Positions 1 through 6,049 of a DNA stretch of 6,049 nt are shown piece after piece. Numbering within the stretch: position 1 is the first letter of the stretch; each line of letters begins with the position of its first letter. The notes below the pieces were generated by a model. The model ran no database searches and was not told the origin of the DNA. It was given only the letters and a program-made list of their open reading frames with translations. The translations under genes were made by a program, and so were the position numbers. Origin of the DNA: a virus (Duplodnaviria; Heunggongvirae; Uroviricota; Caudoviricetes); IMG/VR virus record IMGVR_UViG_2681813004_000019, positions 1 through 6,049 of that record; one strand, 5' to 3'.

Positions 1-804
1 ATGAAGCGCATGCATGACGCCTTCCCTAATCGTCCGGCATCTTCTATCACGGTTAAGCAATGGGTTGACCTGCTTACCGAAGAAGAAAAAGATAATCCAC
101 GCCGAGCAAGGCAGGTGCTAAGTCAACTAAGATCAGCAATTAGTTGGTGCATGCGGCGTCAGTTGATAGATAGTTGCGCAATTATGAGCATCCAGCCAAG
201 GGACTTCGGCTCCCGTGCTGAGGTAGGGGATCGGGTACTGTCGTATCACGAACTGGCTAAGATTTGGCTTGCTATTGAAAGAAGCCGTGCGTCTACGTCA
301 AATAAGCTCCTTCATCAGATGCTTATGCTGTGGGGGGCGAGGCTCTCAGAGCTTAGGCTGGCAACAAAGACAGAATTTGACCTGCTGGACAACGTATGGA
401 CCGTACCGAAAGAGCATAGCAAGATGGGTAATGTTATCCGCCGTCCAATCTTCGAACAAATTAAGCCTTTCCTCGATAAGGCCATGACAACGTACAATGA
501 TGTTCTTTTCCCTGGAGAAGACATAAACAAACCGATCAGCATCGCTGCAGCCAACCGATTCGTAAATAGAATAAGGGGAGGGATGGATATAGGTTACTGG
601 CGAACACATGATTTCAGAAGAACGCTTGTTACACGTCTGTCCGAGATGAATGTCGAGCCTCATGTTACTGAGCGAATGCTCGGTCATGAACTTGGCGGGA
701 TAATGTCCGTATACAATAAACACGACTGGATAGAGGCTCAGCGCAAAGCGTATGAGCTTCACGCTGATAAATTGTTCTGGCACATCAGGAGCATTTCTGA
801 TTAA
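1..804 (+). CDS. int: Tyrosine-type phage integrase, C-terminal catalytic part; the gene almost certainly starts upstream of the window
   Basis: The 267-aa frame from position 1 contains the catalytic-domain motifs HDFRRT (His-x-x-Arg), LGH and a C-terminal Tyr in SVYNKHDW, ending at a TAA at 802-804. The N-terminal DNA-binding portion expected for a ~350-400 aa integrase is missing, so the ATG at position 1 is probably internal. Confidence 0.85.
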   Translation: MKRMHDAFPNRPASSITVKQWVDLLTEEEKDNPRRARQVLSQLRSAISWCMRRQLIDSCAIMSIQPRDFGSRAEVGDRVLSYHELAKIWLAIERSRASTSNKLLHQMLMLWGARLSELRLATKTEFDLLDNVWTVPKEHSKMGNVIRRPIFEQIKPFLDKAMTTYNDVLFPGEDINKPISIAAANRFVNRIRGGMDIGYWRTHDFRRTLVTRLSEMNVEPHVTERMLGHELGGIMSVYNKHDWIEAQRKAYELHADKLFWHIRSISD

Positions 805-1840: not shown

Positions 1841-1985
1841 TTTTATGCCCTTTGCATTTGTTCAGATAGCCCTGTGTTCAGCAGGGCGGTCAGGTACTTG
1901 AACACCGTGCAAAGTCGGCCCGTATCCTTAACCTTTCGGTTGTTTTTCGGTATACGCGCTACCCGACCATATCTGAGAAATGGAC

Positions 1986-2186: not shown

Positions 2187-3101
2187 TTAGCCACAGTTTA
2201 CCTCCTGCGGCGGTTCTGGTAGCGGCATCCAGAACAAGACGTTCCCTAACCACGATAAAGTGCCGTCGCTCAACTCCACGTATTCCCCTTGTACCTGTCC
2301 TGCCATATACTCGCCGTGCTTTGAATAAATTAAAATCCAATCATCTTGAGCGGGCATTCGCTCACTACAGCTTATCCAACTATCCGGAGTTACCGGAGAG
2401 TTGCCCGACAGCTCGTTCAACTTGTAAGTTTGGCTTACAGATTCGGCTTCCAGTGGCGGTAAATCTGGCACTGTTACGCCAAACAACGCTGCCAGTGCAC
2501 GATAGTTTTGCTCACTGTGATAGCGGCCTTTACAGCGAACCAGTTTTTCCGCAGCGGATTTGATTACTTCCAGTTCTGCTACCCTCTGCTGATACGTTAA
2601 TGACTCCTGTGCCAGCCCAGCATTCCAGTCTCGCAGTTCTGCTATGTGCTTCTCTGATGCTTCAAGTAACGCCTGCTTATCGCGTAGCGCTTCTTCCAGT
2701 TCAGCAACATGGCATTCACTATCAATAAGGTTGTTATCTGCGGCTTCCTGCTCTGATTTGCGCATCAAAACAACGTGCTTTAATGCGTCCTGGGCTTTCT
2801 GAAATTTCAGTGCATAGTCAGTGGCGATTTTTTCCAGTTCTGCGATACACTTGTTTTGGGCTTCCCGTTCATCCAGCAGTGCCTGCACTACTTTAGGGTT
2901 GAAAGCTGCGATAAATTCTGCGTTGTTCTCTGCATTTTTCTGGCCGTCAAAGCCAGGCCATTTGATAATGTCTCCGCAACGTTCATCCCCCGGCGTATGC
3001 ACCGCATATGTATCAGTGCCCGGCGAAATGAATGCGACCCATTCGCCCTGTGTTGCCTGTTTTGCTAACTCACGCAGTGCCTGATAGTCAATCTTGCTCA
3101 C
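2187..3101 (-). CDS. Ea22-like phage protein with a coiled-coil middle region and a DUF551-like C-terminal domain (304 aa)
   Basis: The N-terminus [21 protein letters not shown]...[10 protein letters not shown] matches the recalled ead/Ea22-like pattern. The middle is rich in heptad-like charged residues. The C-terminus carries the W/P-rich DUF551-type signature ([11 protein letters not shown]...WMPLPEPP). It uses a GTG start preceded by AGGAGG at 7 nt, and the start overlaps the stop of the upstream 55-aa ORF (GTGA). Confidence 0.7.
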
Positions 3102-3265
3102 TGGTTGCCTCCTTTACGCCACATCGCATTCAGATATTTGTTTTGATTCACTGATGGAAAAGAATTTCTCTTAAGCAATTCCTCTCTCGATGGCATTGGC
3201 TTTACGCGTTGGCGAATAATCATTTCTGCCGGAAGAATGCCGGGATTGTATGCAAGTCCTCTCAT
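3098..3265 (-). CDS. Small phage protein of unknown function (55 aa); its first 12 codons lie inside direct-repeat copy 1 and it has no good Shine-Dalgarno
   Basis: Hand translation gives [55 protein letters not shown]. Its stop overlaps the Ea22 GTG start. The sequence upstream of the ATG is chromosomal-like insert DNA without an SD, whereas the duplicated copy of the ATG at 3954 keeps a GAGGAA SD. Confidence 0.4.
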
Positions 3266-3271
3266 GGTAAA
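3231..3271. repeat. 41-bp perfect direct repeat, copy 1
   Basis: GGAAGAATGCCGGGATTGTATGCAAGTCCTCTCATGGTAAA is identical to 3920-3960, an offset of 689 bp. The flanking bases differ on both sides. Confidence 0.95.
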
Positions 3272-3343
3272 CCCGGTAGCCGTAAGGGATAAGCCGAGGG
3301 CACCGCGCAGCGGCGATTTTGTTCGCCAGAGCCCGGGGGTGCA

Positions 3344-3369
3344 GGGGGCGGCGGCGATTGGCCGCCCCC
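3344..3369. repeat. GC-rich perfect hairpin (9-bp stem, 8-nt loop)
   Basis: GGGGGCGGC-ggcgattg-GCCGCCCCC lies inside the inserted segment. No U-tract follows it on either strand. It could be a chromosomal extragenic repeat or structural element. Confidence 0.4.
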
Positions 3370-3481
3370 TGCGCGCTCCTTGCGCCAGTGATTATATGAA
3401 GCAATGCACATGACAGGAGCGCAACAGGATGAGAGACTGAAATATTCTCGTTATTTTCGGACCTGATGACATTAATTAATT

Positions 3482-3565
3482 TTAAAATATCATCTTAAAT
3501 ACGCCAGTCACCACCAGTAGCCCAATCAGGAAAATAATCAATACAGCCCAGAGTATAATTTTCAT
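3482..3565 (-). CDS. yohP: 27-aa hydrophobic single-pass membrane peptide resembling E. coli YohP (identification from memory)
   Basis: Hand translation gives MKIILWAVLIIFLIGLLVVTGVFKMIF with a TAA stop. AAGGA lies 6 nt upstream of the ATG. The peptide is almost entirely hydrophobic, consistent with one transmembrane helix. Confidence 0.5.
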   Translation of the reverse strand: MKIILWAVLIIFLIGLLVVTGVFKMIF

Positions 3566-3818
3566 TGGCGTTCCTTTATTTGTGAGTGCTGAATAAGTAT
3601 AGGAAAAAACGAAGCCCTTTGCCGTTATCCATAAACGATTAAGATAAATCGGAAGATATCATTCACTTAGTGTATATTTTTCTGGATATGTCGTTTTATT
3701 GCTACTGATGTATTGCCACGCGAAACTAAAAAATATATCGCAACACACGGTAATCTTCGCGCACCTTTTCTTACCTGATTATTCCCCCATGAATCGTGAT
3801 TCCTTTTATCCAGCCATC

Positions 3819-3918
3819 GGGTAATGCTGCCAACTTACTGATTTAGTGTATGATGGTGTTTTTGAGGTGCTCCAGTGGCTTCTGTTTCTATCAGCTGTCC
3901 CTCCTGTTCAGCTACTGA
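3819..3918 (+). mobile_element. insA: IS1 terminal fragment: left inverted repeat plus the first 14 codons of insA, truncated
   Basis: GGTAATGCTGCCAACTTACTGAT...GAGGTGCTCCAGTGGCTTCTGTTTCTATCAGCTGTCCCTCCTGTTCAGCTACTGA matches the recalled IS1 end and the InsA N-terminus MASVSISCPSCSAT. Identity stops at 3918, one base before repeat copy 2. Confidence 0.8.
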
Positions 3919-3919
3919 A

Positions 3920-3960
3920 GGAAGAATGCCGGGATTGTATGCAAGTCCTCTCATGGTAAA
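3920..3960. repeat. 41-bp perfect direct repeat, copy 2, abutting the IS1 fragment
   Basis: Identical to 3231-3271. It contains the ATG (3954) and first 12 codons of the small ORF, here preceded by the native GAGGAA SD and the stop of the 98-aa gene. Confidence 0.95.
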
Positions 3961-3964
3961 TTCC

Positions 3965-4261
3965 TCAGTCATTACTGATAGCGCCATAGCGTGAGCGGTA
4001 ATTACGCAGGCGCGGGTCGATATATTCAGGGAATTTGTCTATTGTCGCTTTTCGCAACGGTCTCATTGCTGTTTCGTTTGTTCGGTCCTTCTCATCTTTT
4101 AACGCGAGTTGTATATCGCGTCGGTACATCCGTTCTGCTTTTGTTTCTGGTGGCAGATCAATAAACGTGTCGAAAATGTTTTTGATATTTTCCAGCACCT
4201 CCGCCTTGGAGCTACCGGAGCAATTGCGCGGGTCATCCGCACCATACAGAGGCGCTGGCAT
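3965..4261 (-). CDS. Phage protein of unknown function (98 aa)
   Basis: The ORF is in the six-frame track, lies in the operon between the SSB-like gene (stop at 4285) and the split small ORF, and is charged and hydrophilic. I do not recognise a family. Confidence 0.45.
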   Translation of the reverse strand: MPAPLYGADDPRNCSGSSKAEVLENIKNIFDTFIDLPPETKAERMYRRDIQLALKDEKDRTNETAMRPLRKATIDKFPEYIDPRLRNYRSRYGAISND

Positions 4262-4284
4262 AATGGGAGCCTTATTTTCAGTAA

Positions 4285-4872
4285 TCAGAAAGGAGGGTAA
4301 TCGTTCTGGCTGTAACCATAATCATCTGCATGATTCTGGCTTACGTTTTTAGAGCGATTGTCTTTATCTTTGAGATTGGCAACCATGTTGGCGATAGTTT
4401 CTGGTTGCTTGCCTTCTGCCTTTTCTTTAAGGGTTTGACCTGTTTGTGCAATAAACGGGATGCGTATTTCCATCTGGTAGCTGTCTGCGCCAGTCTTTTT
4501 GTTTGTGGTTAATACTTTCTGGAGCACTAACCCGATTTTCTTTCCATGAAATTCAGGTGCAACAAATTTACTGGCGGAAACCATATGCTGCGTTAATTGT
4601 CCAATCCCGGCACACCCCATCATGGCGTGAACGACATTTGCGCCAAATTTGTTTTCCGTGCCGTCATTTTTCTGAACACAGACGCTAAGATATTGGATTT
4701 TACGTCCGTCGTCGGATTCGCCAGAAAACTCAATAAATTTGGCTCCTTTTTCTGATTGCTTTAGTTCTGCTTCAGTAATGGTAATGATATGAGCACCAGT
4801 TTCGTTAATAAAACCACCTTGCCCTGCGGTCAGTGCTGCTTCTTCGTTATAAGTAAAAATCACGTTGCTCAT
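4285..4872 (-). CDS. Putative phage ssDNA-binding protein partnering the Sak4-like ATPase (195 aa); the C-terminus DYPPF resembles the SSB/gp2.5 acidic-aromatic tip
   Basis: The start ATG overlaps the Sak4 stop (ATGA), suggesting translational coupling. The C-terminal ~50 residues are low-complexity and polar, ending ...NHADDYGYSQNDYPPF, which recalls the ...DDDIPF tip of SSB. The family assignment is uncertain. Confidence 0.4.
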   Translation of the reverse strand: MSNVIFTYNEEAALTAGQGGFINETGAHIITITEAELKQSEKGAKFIEFSGESDDGRKIQYLSVCVQKNDGTENKFGANVVHAMMGCAGIGQLTQHMVSASKFVAPEFHGKKIGLVLQKVLTTNKKTGADSYQMEIRIPFIAQTGQTLKEKAEGKQPETIANMVANLKDKDNRSKNVSQNHADDYGYSQNDYPPF

Positions 4873-5549
4873 GCGGCGTTTTCCTTAATTTGATGAACAT
4901 TATTGATGCCGTAGTAATCACAAACAGTGGCATCGACGAAAGAGAGATCGTTATCAATCTCATTGGAATCAAACATTCCCATTGGGGATTTAACAGTGTC
5001 TGCACCGTTGTTTTTTGTGGTGAAAAAGAACTGGTCATCACGGGTAAGGGTGCGAAGAACTATAGTAAACATGCCTTCGACAGTGATTTTCTCGTCCAGC
5101 ATTTTGCCGATAGTCTTCATTTTCACACGCCCCATAGGAGTTTCTTCGGTGTGCGCAAGAAAATAGACTCTCAGGTCATCAGGCGCATCCTGCGCAGCCT
5201 TAATGACCTCCCATGCGTGACGGCCTATCTCAGTAAATTTATCAAACGATTTTTCTTCTGAGCGGCGCATAAACTCATTGCTCATCACATACTGGAAGTC
5301 ATCAACAATAACGATTCTTTTCCCGTATTCGTGAGCACGCTTAATTACGGCAACTATTACGTCCCATTTGTCAGTGGTAACTACGGTTCCTTTTTTTGCT
5401 CTGGCATCCCATGCAAGCCAGTCTTTTGATTTAAATGGTAGCGGCTTGCCTATTGGTTTTATAAGTATTGCTTCCTCTGGATTGATATTTCTCATGCTGG
5501 TTGATTTTCCGGTGCCAGACTCACCGAGTATTAATGTCGCAGTTCCCAT
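4869..5549 (-). CDS. Sak4-like phage recombination ATPase, RecA/Rad51-like core, AAA_24-type (226 aa)
   Basis: Walker A GESGTGKS is near the N-terminus, Walker B is RIVIVDD, and the size is about 226 aa. It occupies the position where lambda has bet/exo, downstream of cIII-kil. GAGG lies 7 nt upstream of the ATG. Confidence 0.6.
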   Translation of the reverse strand: MGTATLILGESGTGKSTSMRNINPEEAILIKPIGKPLPFKSKDWLAWDARAKKGTVVTTDKWDVIVAVIKRAHEYGKRIVIVDDFQYVMSNEFMRRSEEKSFDKFTEIGRHAWEVIKAAQDAPDDLRVYFLAHTEETPMGRVKMKTIGKMLDEKITVEGMFTIVLRTLTRDDQFFFTTKNNGADTVKSPMGMFDSNEIDNDLSFVDATVCDYYGINNVHQIKENAA

Positions 5550-5557
5550 AATTTGCC

Positions 5558-5746
5558 TCAGAATGGTAATTCGGATGGGGAGGAAAGAAACTCGCGCTCA
5601 TTCATGCGCTCTCTTTGTGCCTGCCATAAACAAAGTTGTTTCTTTGATTTATCTCCCGCTTTACGCCAGTAACGAGCCTCAGCAATGTGATATTCTCTTT
5701 TTAATCGACTTAACTCTGGAGTTTTCGCCAGTTCTACCGGAATCAT
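5558..5746 (-). CDS. Small phage protein of unknown function (62 aa, counted from the second ATG), ending ...SELPF
   Basis: GGAGG lies 5 nt upstream of the second ATG (MIPVELAKTPEL...), whereas the first ATG has no usable SD. The start overlaps the kil-like stop (ATGA). Confidence 0.45.
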   Translation of the reverse strand: MIPVELAKTPELSRLKREYHIAEARYWRKAGDKSKKQLCLWQAQRERMNEREFLSSPSELPF

Positions 5747-5856
5747 TTTGACCTCCATTTCCTGTAGGCTTCGACGGCCTCACGAAACATCTTTTCATCG
5801 CCAATAAAAGTGGCGATAGTGAATTTAGTCTGGATAGCCATAAGTGTTTTATCCAT
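5743..5856 (-). CDS. kil: Kil-like protein (lambda kil family, host cell-division inhibitor), 37 aa as encoded here
   Basis: MDKTLMAIQTKFTIATFIGDEKMFREAVEAYRKW... matches my recollection of lambda Kil (MDQTLMAIQTKF...). The start overlaps the 3' end of cIII as in lambda, with AGGAG 9 nt upstream. Confidence 0.6.
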   Translation of the reverse strand: MDKTLMAIQTKFTIATFIGDEKMFREAVEAYRKWRSK

Positions 5857-5989
5857 TTTTTGGAACTCCTGGCTGATTAAGTATGTCGATAAGGCGTTTC
5901 CATCCGTCACGTAATTTACGTGTGATTCGCTCAAGTAAAGATTCGGAAGGGCAGCCAGCAACAGGCCACCCTGCAATGGCATATTGCAT
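5849..5989 (-). CDS. cIII: CIII-like protein (lambda cIII family, FtsH inhibitor that stabilises CII), 46 aa as encoded here
   Basis: MQYAIAGWPVAGCPSESLLERITRKLRDGWKRLIDILNQPGVPKNG matches the recalled lambda CIII sequence, including the central amphipathic helix. A strong RBS AAGGAG lies 6 nt upstream of the ATG. Confidence 0.8.
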   Translation of the reverse strand: MQYAIAGWPVAGCPSESLLERITRKLRDGWKRLIDILNQPGVPKNG

Positions 5990-6049
5990 GGTGTGCTCCT
6001 TATTTATACATAACGAAAACGCCTCGAGTGAAGCGTTATTGGTATGCAT

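What the first reader, a model, noticed from the sequence alone, without database searches (positions are those of the whole stretch)
3965..5746. Uncharacterised small early proteins, two with SSB-tip-like C-termini (...ELPF, ...DYPPF)
The 62-aa, 98-aa and 55-aa ORFs in the early-left operon have no family I can recognise. In lambdoid phages this slot typically carries host-takeover, anti-restriction or anti-defence accessory genes. The 62-aa ORF ends in ELPF and the 195-aa SSB-like protein ends in DYPPF. Both resemble the aromatic, acidic, Phe-terminal tip that SSB uses to recruit partners such as RecO, ExoI and RecQ, which suggests a way to mimic or compete with host SSB. This is speculative.
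Basis: inference. Interest (0 to 1): 0.35.

Follow-up and report, generated by a model that had tools for sequence, protein, structure and literature searches.

The report
HK620-type phage recombination module
The flagged genes are the already studied recombination module of an HK620-like prophage (HkaM, Sak4 annealase, phage SSB, Abc2); only the 62-aa HkaM is still of unknown function, and its family always sits just before the annealase gene and almost always ends in Pro-Phe.

Summary
The sequence observation is correct. Minus-strand ORFs of 62 aa (5558-5746, ends ELPF), 195 aa (4285-4872, ends DYPPF) and 98 aa (3965-4261) exist. "No recognisable family" is wrong for most of them.

- **Identity:** the region is the hkaM-sak4-ssb-abc2 Rec module of an HK620-like lambdoid prophage. 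HkaM, SSB and Sak4 are 98-99.6% identical to HK620.
- **98-aa protein:** Abc2, the anti-RecBCD protein (Pfam E=3e-35; PDB 8B1T E=1e-31).
- **55-aa protein:** DUF2737, lying outside the stated range.
- **195-aa protein:** the SSB tail NDYPPF was already shown experimentally (Hutinet 2018) to be needed for loading and stimulating the phage's own Sak4. No mimicry of host SSB has been shown.
- **62-aa HkaM:** this is the open part. HkaM is a published orphan. Among 61 homologues, down to about 25% pairwise identity, 57 end in PF-COOH. Pro and Phe use synonymous codons. The gene always ends 8-12 nt upstream of a strand-annealing gene, whether Sak4, long AAA_24, Erf or Rad52-like.
- **Limits on the mimic idea:** HkaM is a basic helical hairpin with a short flexible tail, and tail acidity is not conserved. 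An SSB-tip-like docking role is plausible (about 0.3) but unproven.

Overall this is mostly known biology with one modest new lead.

The parts
5558..5746 (-). hkaM: 62-aa basic helical-hairpin protein (pI 9.6) ending SSPSELPF. It is the first gene of the Rec module and its function is unknown.
   Evidence: ORF. phrog_1723 E=2e-33. 98.4% identical to HK620 HkaM. AF2 pLDDT 89.6 with helices 10-30 and 33-54. dN is far below dS.
5561..5584 (-). Codons for the HkaM tail, residues 55-62 (SSPSELPF). It is a low-confidence, flexible segment ending in the family-invariant Pro-Phe-COOH.
   Evidence: pLDDT is 57-75 for the last blocks. P61 and F62 are 100% conserved in the 51-sequence alignment. Pro uses CCA/CCG/CCT and Phe uses TTC/TTT. 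Residue 56 varies S/V/A/C among near-identical alleles.
5752..5756 (-). GGAGG Shine-Dalgarno for the MIPV start of hkaM. The kil ORF ends at 5743, overlapping the hkaM start.
   Evidence: Sequence read. All homologues of this subfamily start MIPV.
5550..5560 (-). hkaM stop codon TGA (5558-5560) overlapping the GAGG Shine-Dalgarno of sak4, with 8 nt between the stop and the sak4 ATG (5549). This suggests translational coupling.
   Evidence: The gap is 8 nt in 88 of 94 loci whatever the downstream annealase.
4869..5549 (-). sak4 (hkaL): 226-aa core-only RecA-like ATP-dependent single-strand annealing protein.
   Evidence: phrog_2872 E=4e-108; Pfam AAA_24 E=5e-7. 99.6% identical to HK620 Sak4. 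Biochemistry in PMC5928155.
4285..4872 (-). ssb (hkaK, 'SSB-2', named DUF669 by sources): 195-aa phage single-strand DNA-binding protein.
   Evidence: phrog_743 E=6e-67. 99.0% identical to HK620 SSB. Sources name homologues DUF669. Shown to be an SSB in PMC5928155.
4288..4305 (-). Codons for the SSB C-terminal hexapeptide NDYPPF, the experimentally defined Sak4-recruiting tip.
   Evidence: Identical to the HK620 tail. Deleting these six residues cuts recombineering 10-fold and abolishes stimulation of annealing (PMC5928155). Family-wide, 106/116 end in F and 65/116 in PF.
3965..4261 (-). abc2: 98-aa anti-RecBCD protein 2. It is a divergent allele, 61-62% identical to the HK620 and P22 Abc2 proteins, with conserved N- and C-termini.
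   Evidence: PF11043 E=3e-35, full length. phrog_656 E=6e-44. PDB 8b1t E=1e-31. Identities.
3098..3265 (-). 55-aa DUF2737 protein (like HK97 gp38 and HK620 HkaI), function unknown.
   Evidence: PF10930 E=9e-32; phrog_1117 E=2e-37.

Best explanation
Window 3965-5746 is the homologous-recombination (Rec) module of the PL operon of an HK620-like lambdoid prophage. On the minus strand, transcribed after cIII and kil, the gene order is hkaM, sak4, ssb, abc2.

**Steps shown elsewhere for near-identical proteins**
- The 195-aa protein coats ssDNA.
- Its C-terminal NDYPPF tip lets the RecA-core annealase Sak4 bind SSB-covered ssDNA and stimulates ATP-dependent annealing.
- Abc2 binds RecC and redirects host RecBCD. 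So the SSB tip works like a bacterial SSB-Ct, and its demonstrated client is the phage's own annealase.

**Steps inferred here for HkaM**
- It is a real, purifying-selected protein of about 60 aa: a basic two-helix hairpin followed by a short flexible tail that ends in a near-invariant Pro-Phe-COOH.
- Its stop codon overlaps the ribosome-binding site of whichever annealase gene follows (Sak4, long AAA_24, Erf or Rad52-like). It is therefore probably co-translated with the annealase and acts as a generic accessory recombination factor.
- My preferred mechanism is that the PF-COOH tip docks into the kind of pocket that recognises SSB tails. That pocket could be on the annealase or on a host SSB client. 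The basic hairpin would bind nucleic acid or an acidic partner.

**Confidence.** The identification of the module is near certain. The HkaM tip mechanism is a hypothesis, at about 0.3.
For: **Identity of the module**
- Synteny and annotation match HK620.
- Identities to HK620 are 98.4% (HkaM), 99.0% (SSB) and 99.6% (Sak4).
- Abc2 matches PDB 8b1t.

**Published function.** PMC5928155 reports the SSB activity, the NDYPPF requirement in vivo and in vitro, and HkaM as an orphan. PMC12315714 reports the Rec-module classification, with HkaK as 'SSB-2'.

**HkaM family**
- 57 of 61 homologues end in PF.
- Only A24, E46, P61 and F62 are 100% conserved across 51 sequences with pairwise identity down to 25%.
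- Pro and Phe use synonymous codons, and both TGA and TAA occur as the stop.
- dN is 0.25-0.97 with dS saturated, or dN/dS is about 0.3.
- AF2 predicts a hairpin at pLDDT 89.6 with a low-confidence tail.
- pI is 9-11.3 in 16 members.

**Synteny.** The gene is always directly upstream of a strand-annealing gene of any fold.

**PF termini.** In these neighbourhoods PF-COOH is otherwise found almost only on SSBs.
Against: **Against the HkaM mechanism**
- The acidic run that defines bacterial SSB-Ct is absent from most family members (GPCPF, GPAPF, GEPPF).
- The tail is only 4-8 residues beyond helix 2, so it could be part of the fold or of a different interface.
- No OB domain is present.
- No structural or sequence relative with a known function was found.
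- In Hutinet 2018, sak4+ssb alone gave the full stimulation seen with the whole module, so HkaM is not needed for oligonucleotide recombineering in a recA mutS strain.
- No protein-protein prediction could be run.

**Against the module identity.** There is nothing substantial. The current Pfam copy gave no DUF669 hit for the 195-aa protein at E<=0.1, although sources name it DUF669.
Confidence: 0.8

Rival explanations
1. The HkaM PF-COOH has nothing to do with SSB-tail recognition. The conserved [FY]FLG-xx-PF end is a structural cap of the hairpin, a dimerisation element, or a contact with an unrelated partner. HkaM is an accessory recombination factor, analogous in position to P22 Arf, that acts through its basic helices, for example by binding DNA.
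For: - The conserved motif is longer than the tip (N49, F53, L54, then G, then PF) and abuts helix 2.
- The tail is not acidic in most members, and the protein is uniformly basic.
- P22 Arf occupies the same slot without any PF tip.
Against: - AF2 does not pack the tail onto the hairpin; the last 8 residues have low pLDDT.
- The linker varies in length (2-5 residues) and in sequence, even among near-identical alleles, while PF stays fixed at the carboxyl end.
- In these loci PF-COOH is otherwise an SSB hallmark.
Confidence: 0.4
2. HkaM and/or the phage SSB mimic the host SSB tip to compete with host SSB for clients such as ExoI, RecQ, RecO and PriA. That would amount to host takeover, for example by protecting 3' ssDNA recombination intermediates.
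For: - The E. coli/Salmonella HkaM alleles end [DE][LIM]PF, like host DDDIPF.
- HkaM accompanies unrelated annealase folds, and modules with SSB-1, SSB-2 or no phage SSB (phage L). This fits a constant host target rather than a module-specific one.
- Some SSB-2 homologues carry an exact DFDDDIPF.
Against: - For the SSB, the demonstrated client is the phage's Sak4, and no host competition is reported.
- HkaM's acidity is not conserved.
- HkaM is monomer-sized with one tip, against four tips on an SSB tetramer concentrated on ssDNA.
- No binding data or multimer prediction is available.
Confidence: 0.15
3. hkaM is only a leader ORF whose translation delivers ribosomes to the annealase start (translational coupling). 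The peptide itself has no function.
For: The stop codon overlaps the annealase Shine-Dalgarno, and the 8-nt spacing is nearly invariant.
Against: - There is strong purifying selection on the protein, with dN far below dS.
- A confident conserved fold is predicted.
- Invariant residues are kept through synonymous codon changes.
- The family is retained down to about 25% pairwise identity.
Confidence: 0.05

Closest known systems
Phage HK620 recombination module hkaM-hkaL(sak4)-hkaK(ssb)-hkaJ(abc2) (Clark 2001; Hutinet et al. 2018, PMC5928155)
   Same: Gene order, spacing and orientation are the same. HkaM is 98.4%, SSB 99.0% and Sak4 99.6% identical. The NDYPPF SSB tail is identical.
   Different: Abc2 is a divergent allele (61% identity). 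Downstream of abc2 the window carries a 650-bp piece of E. coli chromosome (yohP) that HK620 lacks.
Bacterial SSB C-terminal tip (SSB-Ct, DDDIPF)
   Same: Terminal Pro-Phe-COOH at the end of a flexible segment. In the phage SSB it is experimentally a partner-recruiting element. In HkaM the PF is family-invariant.
   Different: The phage SSB is not a PF00436 SSB by sequence and its tip is NDYPPF. HkaM has no OB domain, a very short linker, a basic body and, in most members, no acidic residues near the tip.
P22 Arf (accessory recombination function; Poteete et al. 1991, cited in PMC12315714)
   Same: A small ORF (47 aa) in the same slot, between kil and the annealase gene. It aids recombination but is not essential, and its molecular function is unknown.
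   Different: There is no sequence similarity. Arf is acidic and ends ...WDEFAGYYS, with no PF tip. Hutinet 2018 states explicitly that HkaM is not homologous to Arf.
P22 Abc2 (anti-RecBCD protein 2; PDB 8B1T/8B1U)
   Same: Full-length homology, conserved N- and C-terminal segments, and the same position in the Rec module.
   Different: The central region is only about 62% identical overall. RecC binding was not tested.
Red-beta C-terminal domain / SSAP-SSB-Ct interaction (Caldwell et al. 2019, PMC6393309)
   Same: A precedent that phage annealases recognise an SSB C-terminal tail. It is the kind of pocket that an HkaM tip could occupy.
   Different: Different annealase family. Nothing links HkaM to such a pocket experimentally. 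I saw only the title and abstract of this paper.

Membership tests
Abc2 / Anti-RecBCD_p2 (PF11043) | Full-length match to the family HMM above the curated cut-off | tested here: met
   120.6 bits against a cut-off of 25; residues 1-98 match profile positions 1-97 of 97. phrog_656 E=6e-44. PDB 8b1t E=1e-31.
Abc2 / Anti-RecBCD_p2 (PF11043) | Located in the lambdoid early-left Rec module, downstream of the annealase | tested here: met
   Same slot as HK620 hkaJ and P22 abc2.
Abc2 / Anti-RecBCD_p2 (PF11043) | Binds RecC and modifies RecBCD activity | not testable with these tools
   This is a biochemical property. The allele is only 61-62% identical to the studied proteins.
HK620-type phage SSB (HkaK, 'SSB-2', phrog_743) | Sequence membership | tested here: met
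   phrog_743 E=6e-67. 99.0% identical to the experimentally characterised HkaK.
HK620-type phage SSB (HkaK, 'SSB-2', phrog_743) | Gene adjacent to a sak4 or other annealase gene | tested here: met
   The ssb start overlaps the sak4 stop (4869-4872). The arrangement is the same in HK620.
HK620-type phage SSB (HkaK, 'SSB-2', phrog_743) | Aromatic Phe-terminal C-terminal tip required for annealase stimulation | tested here: met
   The NDYPPF tail is identical. 106/116 homologues end in F and 65/116 in PF. The functional requirement comes from PMC5928155 and was not re-tested.
Pfam DUF669 | Match to the Pfam model | tested here: not met
   No Pfam family at E<=0.1 for the 195-aa protein in this Pfam copy. 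NCBI and UniRef nonetheless label homologues DUF669, and Hutinet 2018 equates it with DUF669.
Canonical bacterial SSB (PF00436) | Match to the SSB OB-fold model | tested here: not met
   No PF00436 hit and no PDB sequence relative. The literature calls it a distant or non-homologous SSB.
Sak4 annealases (phrog_2872 / AAA_24) | RecA-core P-loop ATPase matching the Sak4 profile | tested here: met
   phrog_2872 E=4e-108; AAA_24 30.2 bits against a cut-off of 27. 99.6% identical to HK620 Sak4.
HkaM family (phrog_1723) | Sequence membership | tested here: met
   phrog_1723 E=2e-33. 98.4% identical to HkaM. The PHROG label 'recombinase' has no experimental support that I found; Hutinet 2018 calls HkaM an orphan of unknown function, and HK620 hkaM was originally annotated arf by analogy with P22.
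HkaM family (phrog_1723) | Position immediately upstream of a strand-annealing gene (feature derived here) | tested here: met
   The gap is 8 nt in 88/94 loci. Distant members sit upstream of ERF or Rad52_Rad22 genes.
SSB-Ct-type tip (applied to HkaM) | Pro-Phe at the free carboxyl terminus | tested here: met
   57/61 members. 100% in the 51-sequence alignment. Codons vary synonymously.
SSB-Ct-type tip (applied to HkaM) | Acidic run immediately before the tip (D-D-D-I-P-F) | tested here: not met
   The window allele has a single Glu (SELPF). The largest subfamily ends GPCPF, GPAPF or GEPPF, and the net charge of the last 10 residues is 0 to +1.
SSB-Ct-type tip (applied to HkaM) | Tip carried on a disordered linker | tested here: inconclusive
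   The last 8 residues have low pLDDT (57-75) and variable length, but the linker is only 2-8 residues long.
SSB-Ct-type tip (applied to HkaM) | Binds the hydrophobic pocket and basic lip of SSB-client proteins | not testable with these tools
   No multimer prediction or binding assay is available.
P22 Arf | Sequence similarity to Arf | tested here: not met
   Arf (MQHEFSDEEF...AGYYS) is acidic and unrelated. The same conclusion is drawn in PMC5928155.
DUF2737 (PF10930), for the 55-aa ORF at 3098-3265 | Full-length HMM match above the cut-off | tested here: met
   109.2 bits against a cut-off of 25; residues 1-51 of a 53-position model.

The most novel reading that the evidence does not exclude
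HkaM defines a family of roughly 56-62-aa basic hairpin proteins that carry an SSB-style Pro-Phe-COOH docking tip without being SSBs. They are translationally coupled to whatever annealase a lambdoid phage uses. The tip would plug into SSB-tail-binding pockets, either on the annealase (acting as a loader or regulator) or on host SSB clients such as ExoI, RecQ or PriA (acting as a decoy that shields recombination intermediates). That would be a portable 'SSB-tail on a stick' accessory for phage recombination, and possibly the missing helper for dsDNA or in-phage recombination by Sak4 and Erf systems.
Probability: 0.3. Interest if true: 0.6.

Novelty: new member of a known kind. Interest (0 to 1): 0.33.

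Why it matters
For the finding as written it matters little. The module and the SSB-tail mechanism are published, and Abc2 is textbook phage biology.

The residual value is the HkaM family. It is a conserved, uncharacterised first gene of many enterobacterial phage Rec modules. It travels with four different annealase types, is probably co-translated with them, and keeps a Pro-Phe carboxyl end under protein-level selection.

If that tip engages SSB-tail pockets, it would be a new way for phages to tap or jam the SSB interaction hub. It could also matter practically for recombineering systems built from Sak4 or Erf annealases, where missing accessory factors limit efficiency.

Tried and rejected
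- **Pfam and NCBIfam for HkaM.** No hits.
- **PDB profile search for HkaM.** Nothing.
- **Foldseek for HkaM.** Both the PDB and the viral BFVD library gave only generic helical hairpins at E>1, which says nothing about function.
- **Beta-clamp-binding motif.** I considered QLCLW in the window allele and NQRYFL in the 56-aa subfamily. I rejected it because the Gln and the spacing are not conserved across the family.
- **PF conserved only through the downstream ribosome-binding site.** Rejected. Pro uses CCA/CCG/CCT and Phe uses TTC/TTT, the stop is TGA or TAA, and the spacer differs.
- **Homology of HkaM to P22 Arf.** Rejected.
- **Locus searches.** The search for related loci with the diverse alignment A3 failed because no stretch was conserved enough. 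The genome-contig scan with A2 gave only 2 loci. The viral-contig scan returned mostly near-identical alleles.
- **Literature.** Searches for an SSB-Ct mimic in phages and for 'hkaM' found nothing beyond Hutinet 2018 and Casjens-type Rec-module surveys.
- **Tip type versus module type.** I looked for a correlation between the HkaM tip and the annealase or SSB type. None is evident, and the identical allele precedes Sak4 or the Erf-like Rad52_Rad22-type annealase (Pfam names are from the protein in L007).
Full report
**What is in the window**

All relevant genes are on the minus strand and form the early-left (PL) operon of a lambdoid prophage. The order of elements is as follows:

| Coordinates | Element |
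|---|---|
| 5849-6049+ | cIII, with its Rfam thermoregulator at 5944-6002 |
| 5743-5982 | kil ORF |
| 5558-5746 | 62-aa ORF |
| 4869-5549 | 226-aa P-loop protein |
| 4285-4872 | 195-aa protein |
| 3965-4261 | 98-aa protein |
| 3835-3987 | truncated 50-aa ORF |
| about 3271-3918 | roughly 650-bp insert |
| 3098-3265 | 55-aa DUF2737 ORF |
| 2187-3101 | Ead/Ea22-DUF551 protein |
| 1217-1840 | Ant-like protein |
| 1007-1174 | 55-aa phrog_676 ORF |
| 785-976 | AlpA-like excisionase |
| 1-804 (+) | partial integrase |

Megablast finds the region in 585 phage records. These are mostly E. coli, Stx-converting and Salmonella lambdoid phages, including HK620.

**Check of the observation**

The three ORFs and the two C-termini are as described. 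The 62-aa ORF ends SSPSELPF and the 195-aa ORF ends NDYPPF. The 62-aa reading starts at MIPV. That start has a GGAGG Shine-Dalgarno 6 nt upstream and is the annotated HK620 start. The 55-aa ORF lies outside the stated coordinates.

The PF termini are not chance. Of 2672 unique six-frame ORF products from about 100 related loci, 70 end in PF. Apart from two probably spurious ORFs, these are all SSBs, SSB-like proteins or homologues of the 62-aa protein.

**Identity of the genes**

The annotated HK620 genome has the same four genes in the same order and spacing: hkaM, hkaL (sak4), hkaK (ssb) and hkaJ (abc2). Identities to HK620 are given below.

| Protein | Identity to HK620 |
|---|---|
| HkaM | 98.4% |
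| SSB | 99.0% |
| Sak4 | 99.6% |
| Abc2 | 61% |

- **98-aa protein.** It is a full-length member of Pfam Anti-RecBCD_p2 (E=3e-35; 120.6 bits against a cut-off of 25). It matches the solved P22 Abc2 chain 8b1t at E=1e-31. The claim of 'no recognisable family' is therefore wrong for it. It is a divergent allele, about 61-62% identical to the HK620 and P22 proteins.
- **55-aa protein.** It belongs to DUF2737 (E=9e-32), a family of unknown function.
- **195-aa protein.** It hits phrog_743, 'single strand DNA binding protein', at E=6e-67. It has no Pfam hit in the copy used, although sources label its homologues DUF669.

**What is already published**

Hutinet et al. 2018 (PMC5928155) showed the following for proteins 99% identical to those here:

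- HkaK is a bona fide SSB.
- The last six residues, NDYPPF, which the authors explicitly compared with E. coli DDDIPF, are needed both for that stimulation and for Sak4 binding to SSB-covered ssDNA.
- HkaM is an orphan of unknown function, not homologous to P22 Arf.
- sak4+ssb alone reproduced the effect of the whole four-gene module in oligonucleotide recombineering.

A 2025 survey of lambdoid Rec modules classifies HkaK as 'SSB-2' and Sak4 as a strand-annealing protein of the Rad51/RecA type (PMC12315714).

It is already known, and the demonstrated partner is the phage annealase rather than host SSB clients.

I confirmed tail conservation independently. Of 116 full-length homologues, 106 end in Phe and 65 in Pro-Phe, usually after acidic and aromatic residues. 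Some Xenorhabdus members carry an exact DFDDDIPF.

**The remaining unknown: HkaM**

*Size of the family.* A first search found 19 relatives. A profile search of 1.84 billion representatives found 21. A profile search of the 5.8-billion-protein collection found 77. All named sources are Enterobacterales or their phages.

*The C-terminus.* Of 61 usable members, 57 end exactly in PF. One ends in SF. In three, the [PS]F is followed by a read-through or fusion extension. In a 51-sequence alignment with pairwise identity down to 25%, only four columns are 100% conserved: A24, E46, P61 and F62. N49, F53 and L54 are above 90%. The family motif is therefore N-x-x-x-[FL]-L-G-x(2-5)-P-F-COOH.

*Selection at the protein level.* Pro is encoded by CCA, CCG or CCT, Phe by TTC or TTT, and the stop is TGA or TAA. 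dN is 0.25-0.97 while dS is saturated, or dN/dS is about 0.3.

*A fixed tip on a variable linker.* Among near-identical E. coli alleles, residue 56 in the linker varies between S, V, A and C while the LPF stays fixed.

*Predicted structure.* With the 18-sequence alignment, AlphaFold2 gives a confident two-helix hairpin (pLDDT 89.6; helices 10-30 and 33-54). The last eight residues have low confidence.

*Charge and database matches.* The family is uniformly basic, with pI 9.0-11.3. No structural or sequence match to anything characterised was found.

**Genomic context of HkaM**

In every locus with enough flanking DNA, the HkaM gene lies after cIII or kil and ends 8-12 nt before a strand-annealing gene. 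The gap is 8 nt in 88 of 94 loci. The downstream annealase varies:

- short Sak4 (226 aa);
- long AAA_24 proteins (287-299 aa);
- Erf (PF04404);
- Rad52_Rad22-type proteins (PF04098).

The identical ELPF allele precedes either Sak4 or the Erf-like Rad52_Rad22-type annealase (Pfam names are from the protein in L007). The accompanying SSB can be SSB-2, a canonical PF00436 SSB ending D[ID]IPF, or absent, as in phage L.

The hkaM stop codon overlaps the annealase Shine-Dalgarno (TGAGGTGA or TGAGGCAA), which suggests translational coupling.

**Interpretation**

The module identification is secure. For HkaM, the evidence supports a real, conserved accessory protein of the Rec module whose carboxy-terminal Pro-Phe is functionally important.

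Some evidence favours an SSB-tail-like docking tip:

- PF is invariant at the free carboxyl end.
- The linker is variable.
- PF-COOH is otherwise nearly exclusive to SSBs in these loci.
- The family is linked to annealases, a protein class known to read SSB tails (Sak4; Red-beta in the title and abstract of PMC6393309).

Other evidence goes against it:

- The acidic run that defines SSB-Ct is missing in most members (GPCPF, GPAPF, GEPPF).
- The tail is very short.
- The body is basic.
- There is no OB fold.
- HkaM was dispensable in the one functional assay published.

I put the SSB-tip-like docking mechanism at about 0.3. A different role for the conserved end (structural, dimerisation or another partner) is at about 0.4. 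The specific host-SSB-competition version is at about 0.15. A pure leader-ORF role is at about 0.05. These overlap in part, because the host-competition version is a subset of the docking idea.

**Verdict**

The finding is largely a rediscovery of a characterised module. One gene (Abc2) was mis-called as unknown, and one correct but already published inference was made (the SSB tip). The new element is the family-wide conservation of the HkaM PF end and its strict coupling to annealase genes of unrelated folds. That is a modest, testable lead.

**Observations outside the finding**

- **yohP insert.** The 649 bp between the two copies of a 46-nt direct repeat (3226-3271 and 3915-3960) are 99.5% identical to the E. 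coli chromosomal yohP-mdtQ region. They include the 27-codon yohP gene and a REP-like hairpin. The junction arrangement occurs in none of 5426 complete E. coli genomes and in no phage record, where the flanks are contiguous. It is either a unique capture of host DNA or an assembly or engineering artefact.
- **sRNA.** Rfam finds an sRNA-Xcc1 copy at 1880-1968 (-).
- **Shared annealase C-terminus.** Annealases of different core folds in HkaM-linked modules share a C-terminal segment ending ...IR.xEL[KE]Q.AA.

Noticed in passing
window 3226-3960 (insert about 3271-3918; repeats 3226-3271 and 3915-3960): A roughly 650-bp segment, 99.5% identical to the E. coli chromosomal yohP-mdtQ region, sits inside the phage early-left operon. 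It carries the 27-codon small membrane protein gene yohP (MKIILWAVLIIFLIGLLVVTGVFKMIF) and a GC-rich REP-like hairpin. It is bracketed by a 46-nt direct duplication of the 5' end of the DUF2737 gene, which creates the truncated 50-aa ORF at 3835-3987. The junctions occur in 0 of 5426 complete E. coli genomes and in no phage record, so this is a unique host-gene capture, a mis-assembly or an engineered scar.
   Followed up: partly
window 1880-1968 (-): Rfam sRNA-Xcc1 (RF02221) match at 69.3 bits (gathering score 53, E=1.6e-11). It lies in the gap between the Ant-like gene and the Ead/Ea22 gene.
   Followed up: no
window 5944-6002 (-): Full-length Lambda_thermo (cIII thermoregulator, RF01804) match at 88.5 bits, at the start of cIII. 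This confirms lambda-like cIII regulation in this prophage.
   Followed up: no
window 5743-5982 (-): The kil ORF is open for 79 aa, but the Pfam Lambda_Kil domain covers only residues 44-74, and HK620 and other phages annotate a 37-aa Kil. The long ORF overlaps cIII. The true start was not resolved.
   Followed up: no
L003, L004, L006, L009, L012, L014, L016, L102 (annealase genes downstream of HkaM homologues): Annealases with different cores (Erf, Rad52_Rad22-like, long AAA_24) share a similar C-terminal segment ending ...(Y/N)xIR(K/I)xEL(E/K)Q.AA. Even short Sak4 ends ...HQIKENAA. This may be a shuffled partner-interaction domain, and the terminal Ala-Ala resembles a ClpX-type degron. It was not analysed.
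   Followed up: no
L008 5943-6518 and 5001-5186: In a Salmonella prophage the SSB-2 homologue ends ...YYGDMDY, with no terminal Phe. The HkaM homologue in the same module keeps ...DDNRMPF, and the annealase is Rad52_Rad22-type. This may bear on who supplies the PF tip.
   Followed up: no
L003 6284-6808 and L009 3400-3903: Phage PF00436 SSBs in which the DDDIPF motif is internal, followed by a further 15 residues (DDDIPFAPVTLPFPRHAIHSI). The canonical tip would then not be at the free carboxyl end.
   Followed up: no
proteins P0009, P0019, P0176: Natural fusions or deletions exist. P0009 joins the HkaM N-terminus to the Abc2 C-terminus, with sak4 and ssb deleted. P0019 joins the HkaM N-terminus to Sak4. 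P0176 is a 56-aa-subfamily HkaM read through into a Lar_restr_allev domain. They show recombination breakpoints inside hkaM, consistent with the very conserved MIPVELAKTPELSRLKR N-terminus acting as a mosaic junction.
   Followed up: no
window 3965-4261 (-): Abc2 here is only 61-62% identical to the HK620 and P22 Abc2 proteins, while its three module neighbours are 98-99.6% identical to HK620. The N-terminal 16 and C-terminal roughly 25 residues are conserved and the central helices are replaced. This allele swap may reflect adaptation to RecC variants or to defences that sense Abc2.
   Followed up: partly
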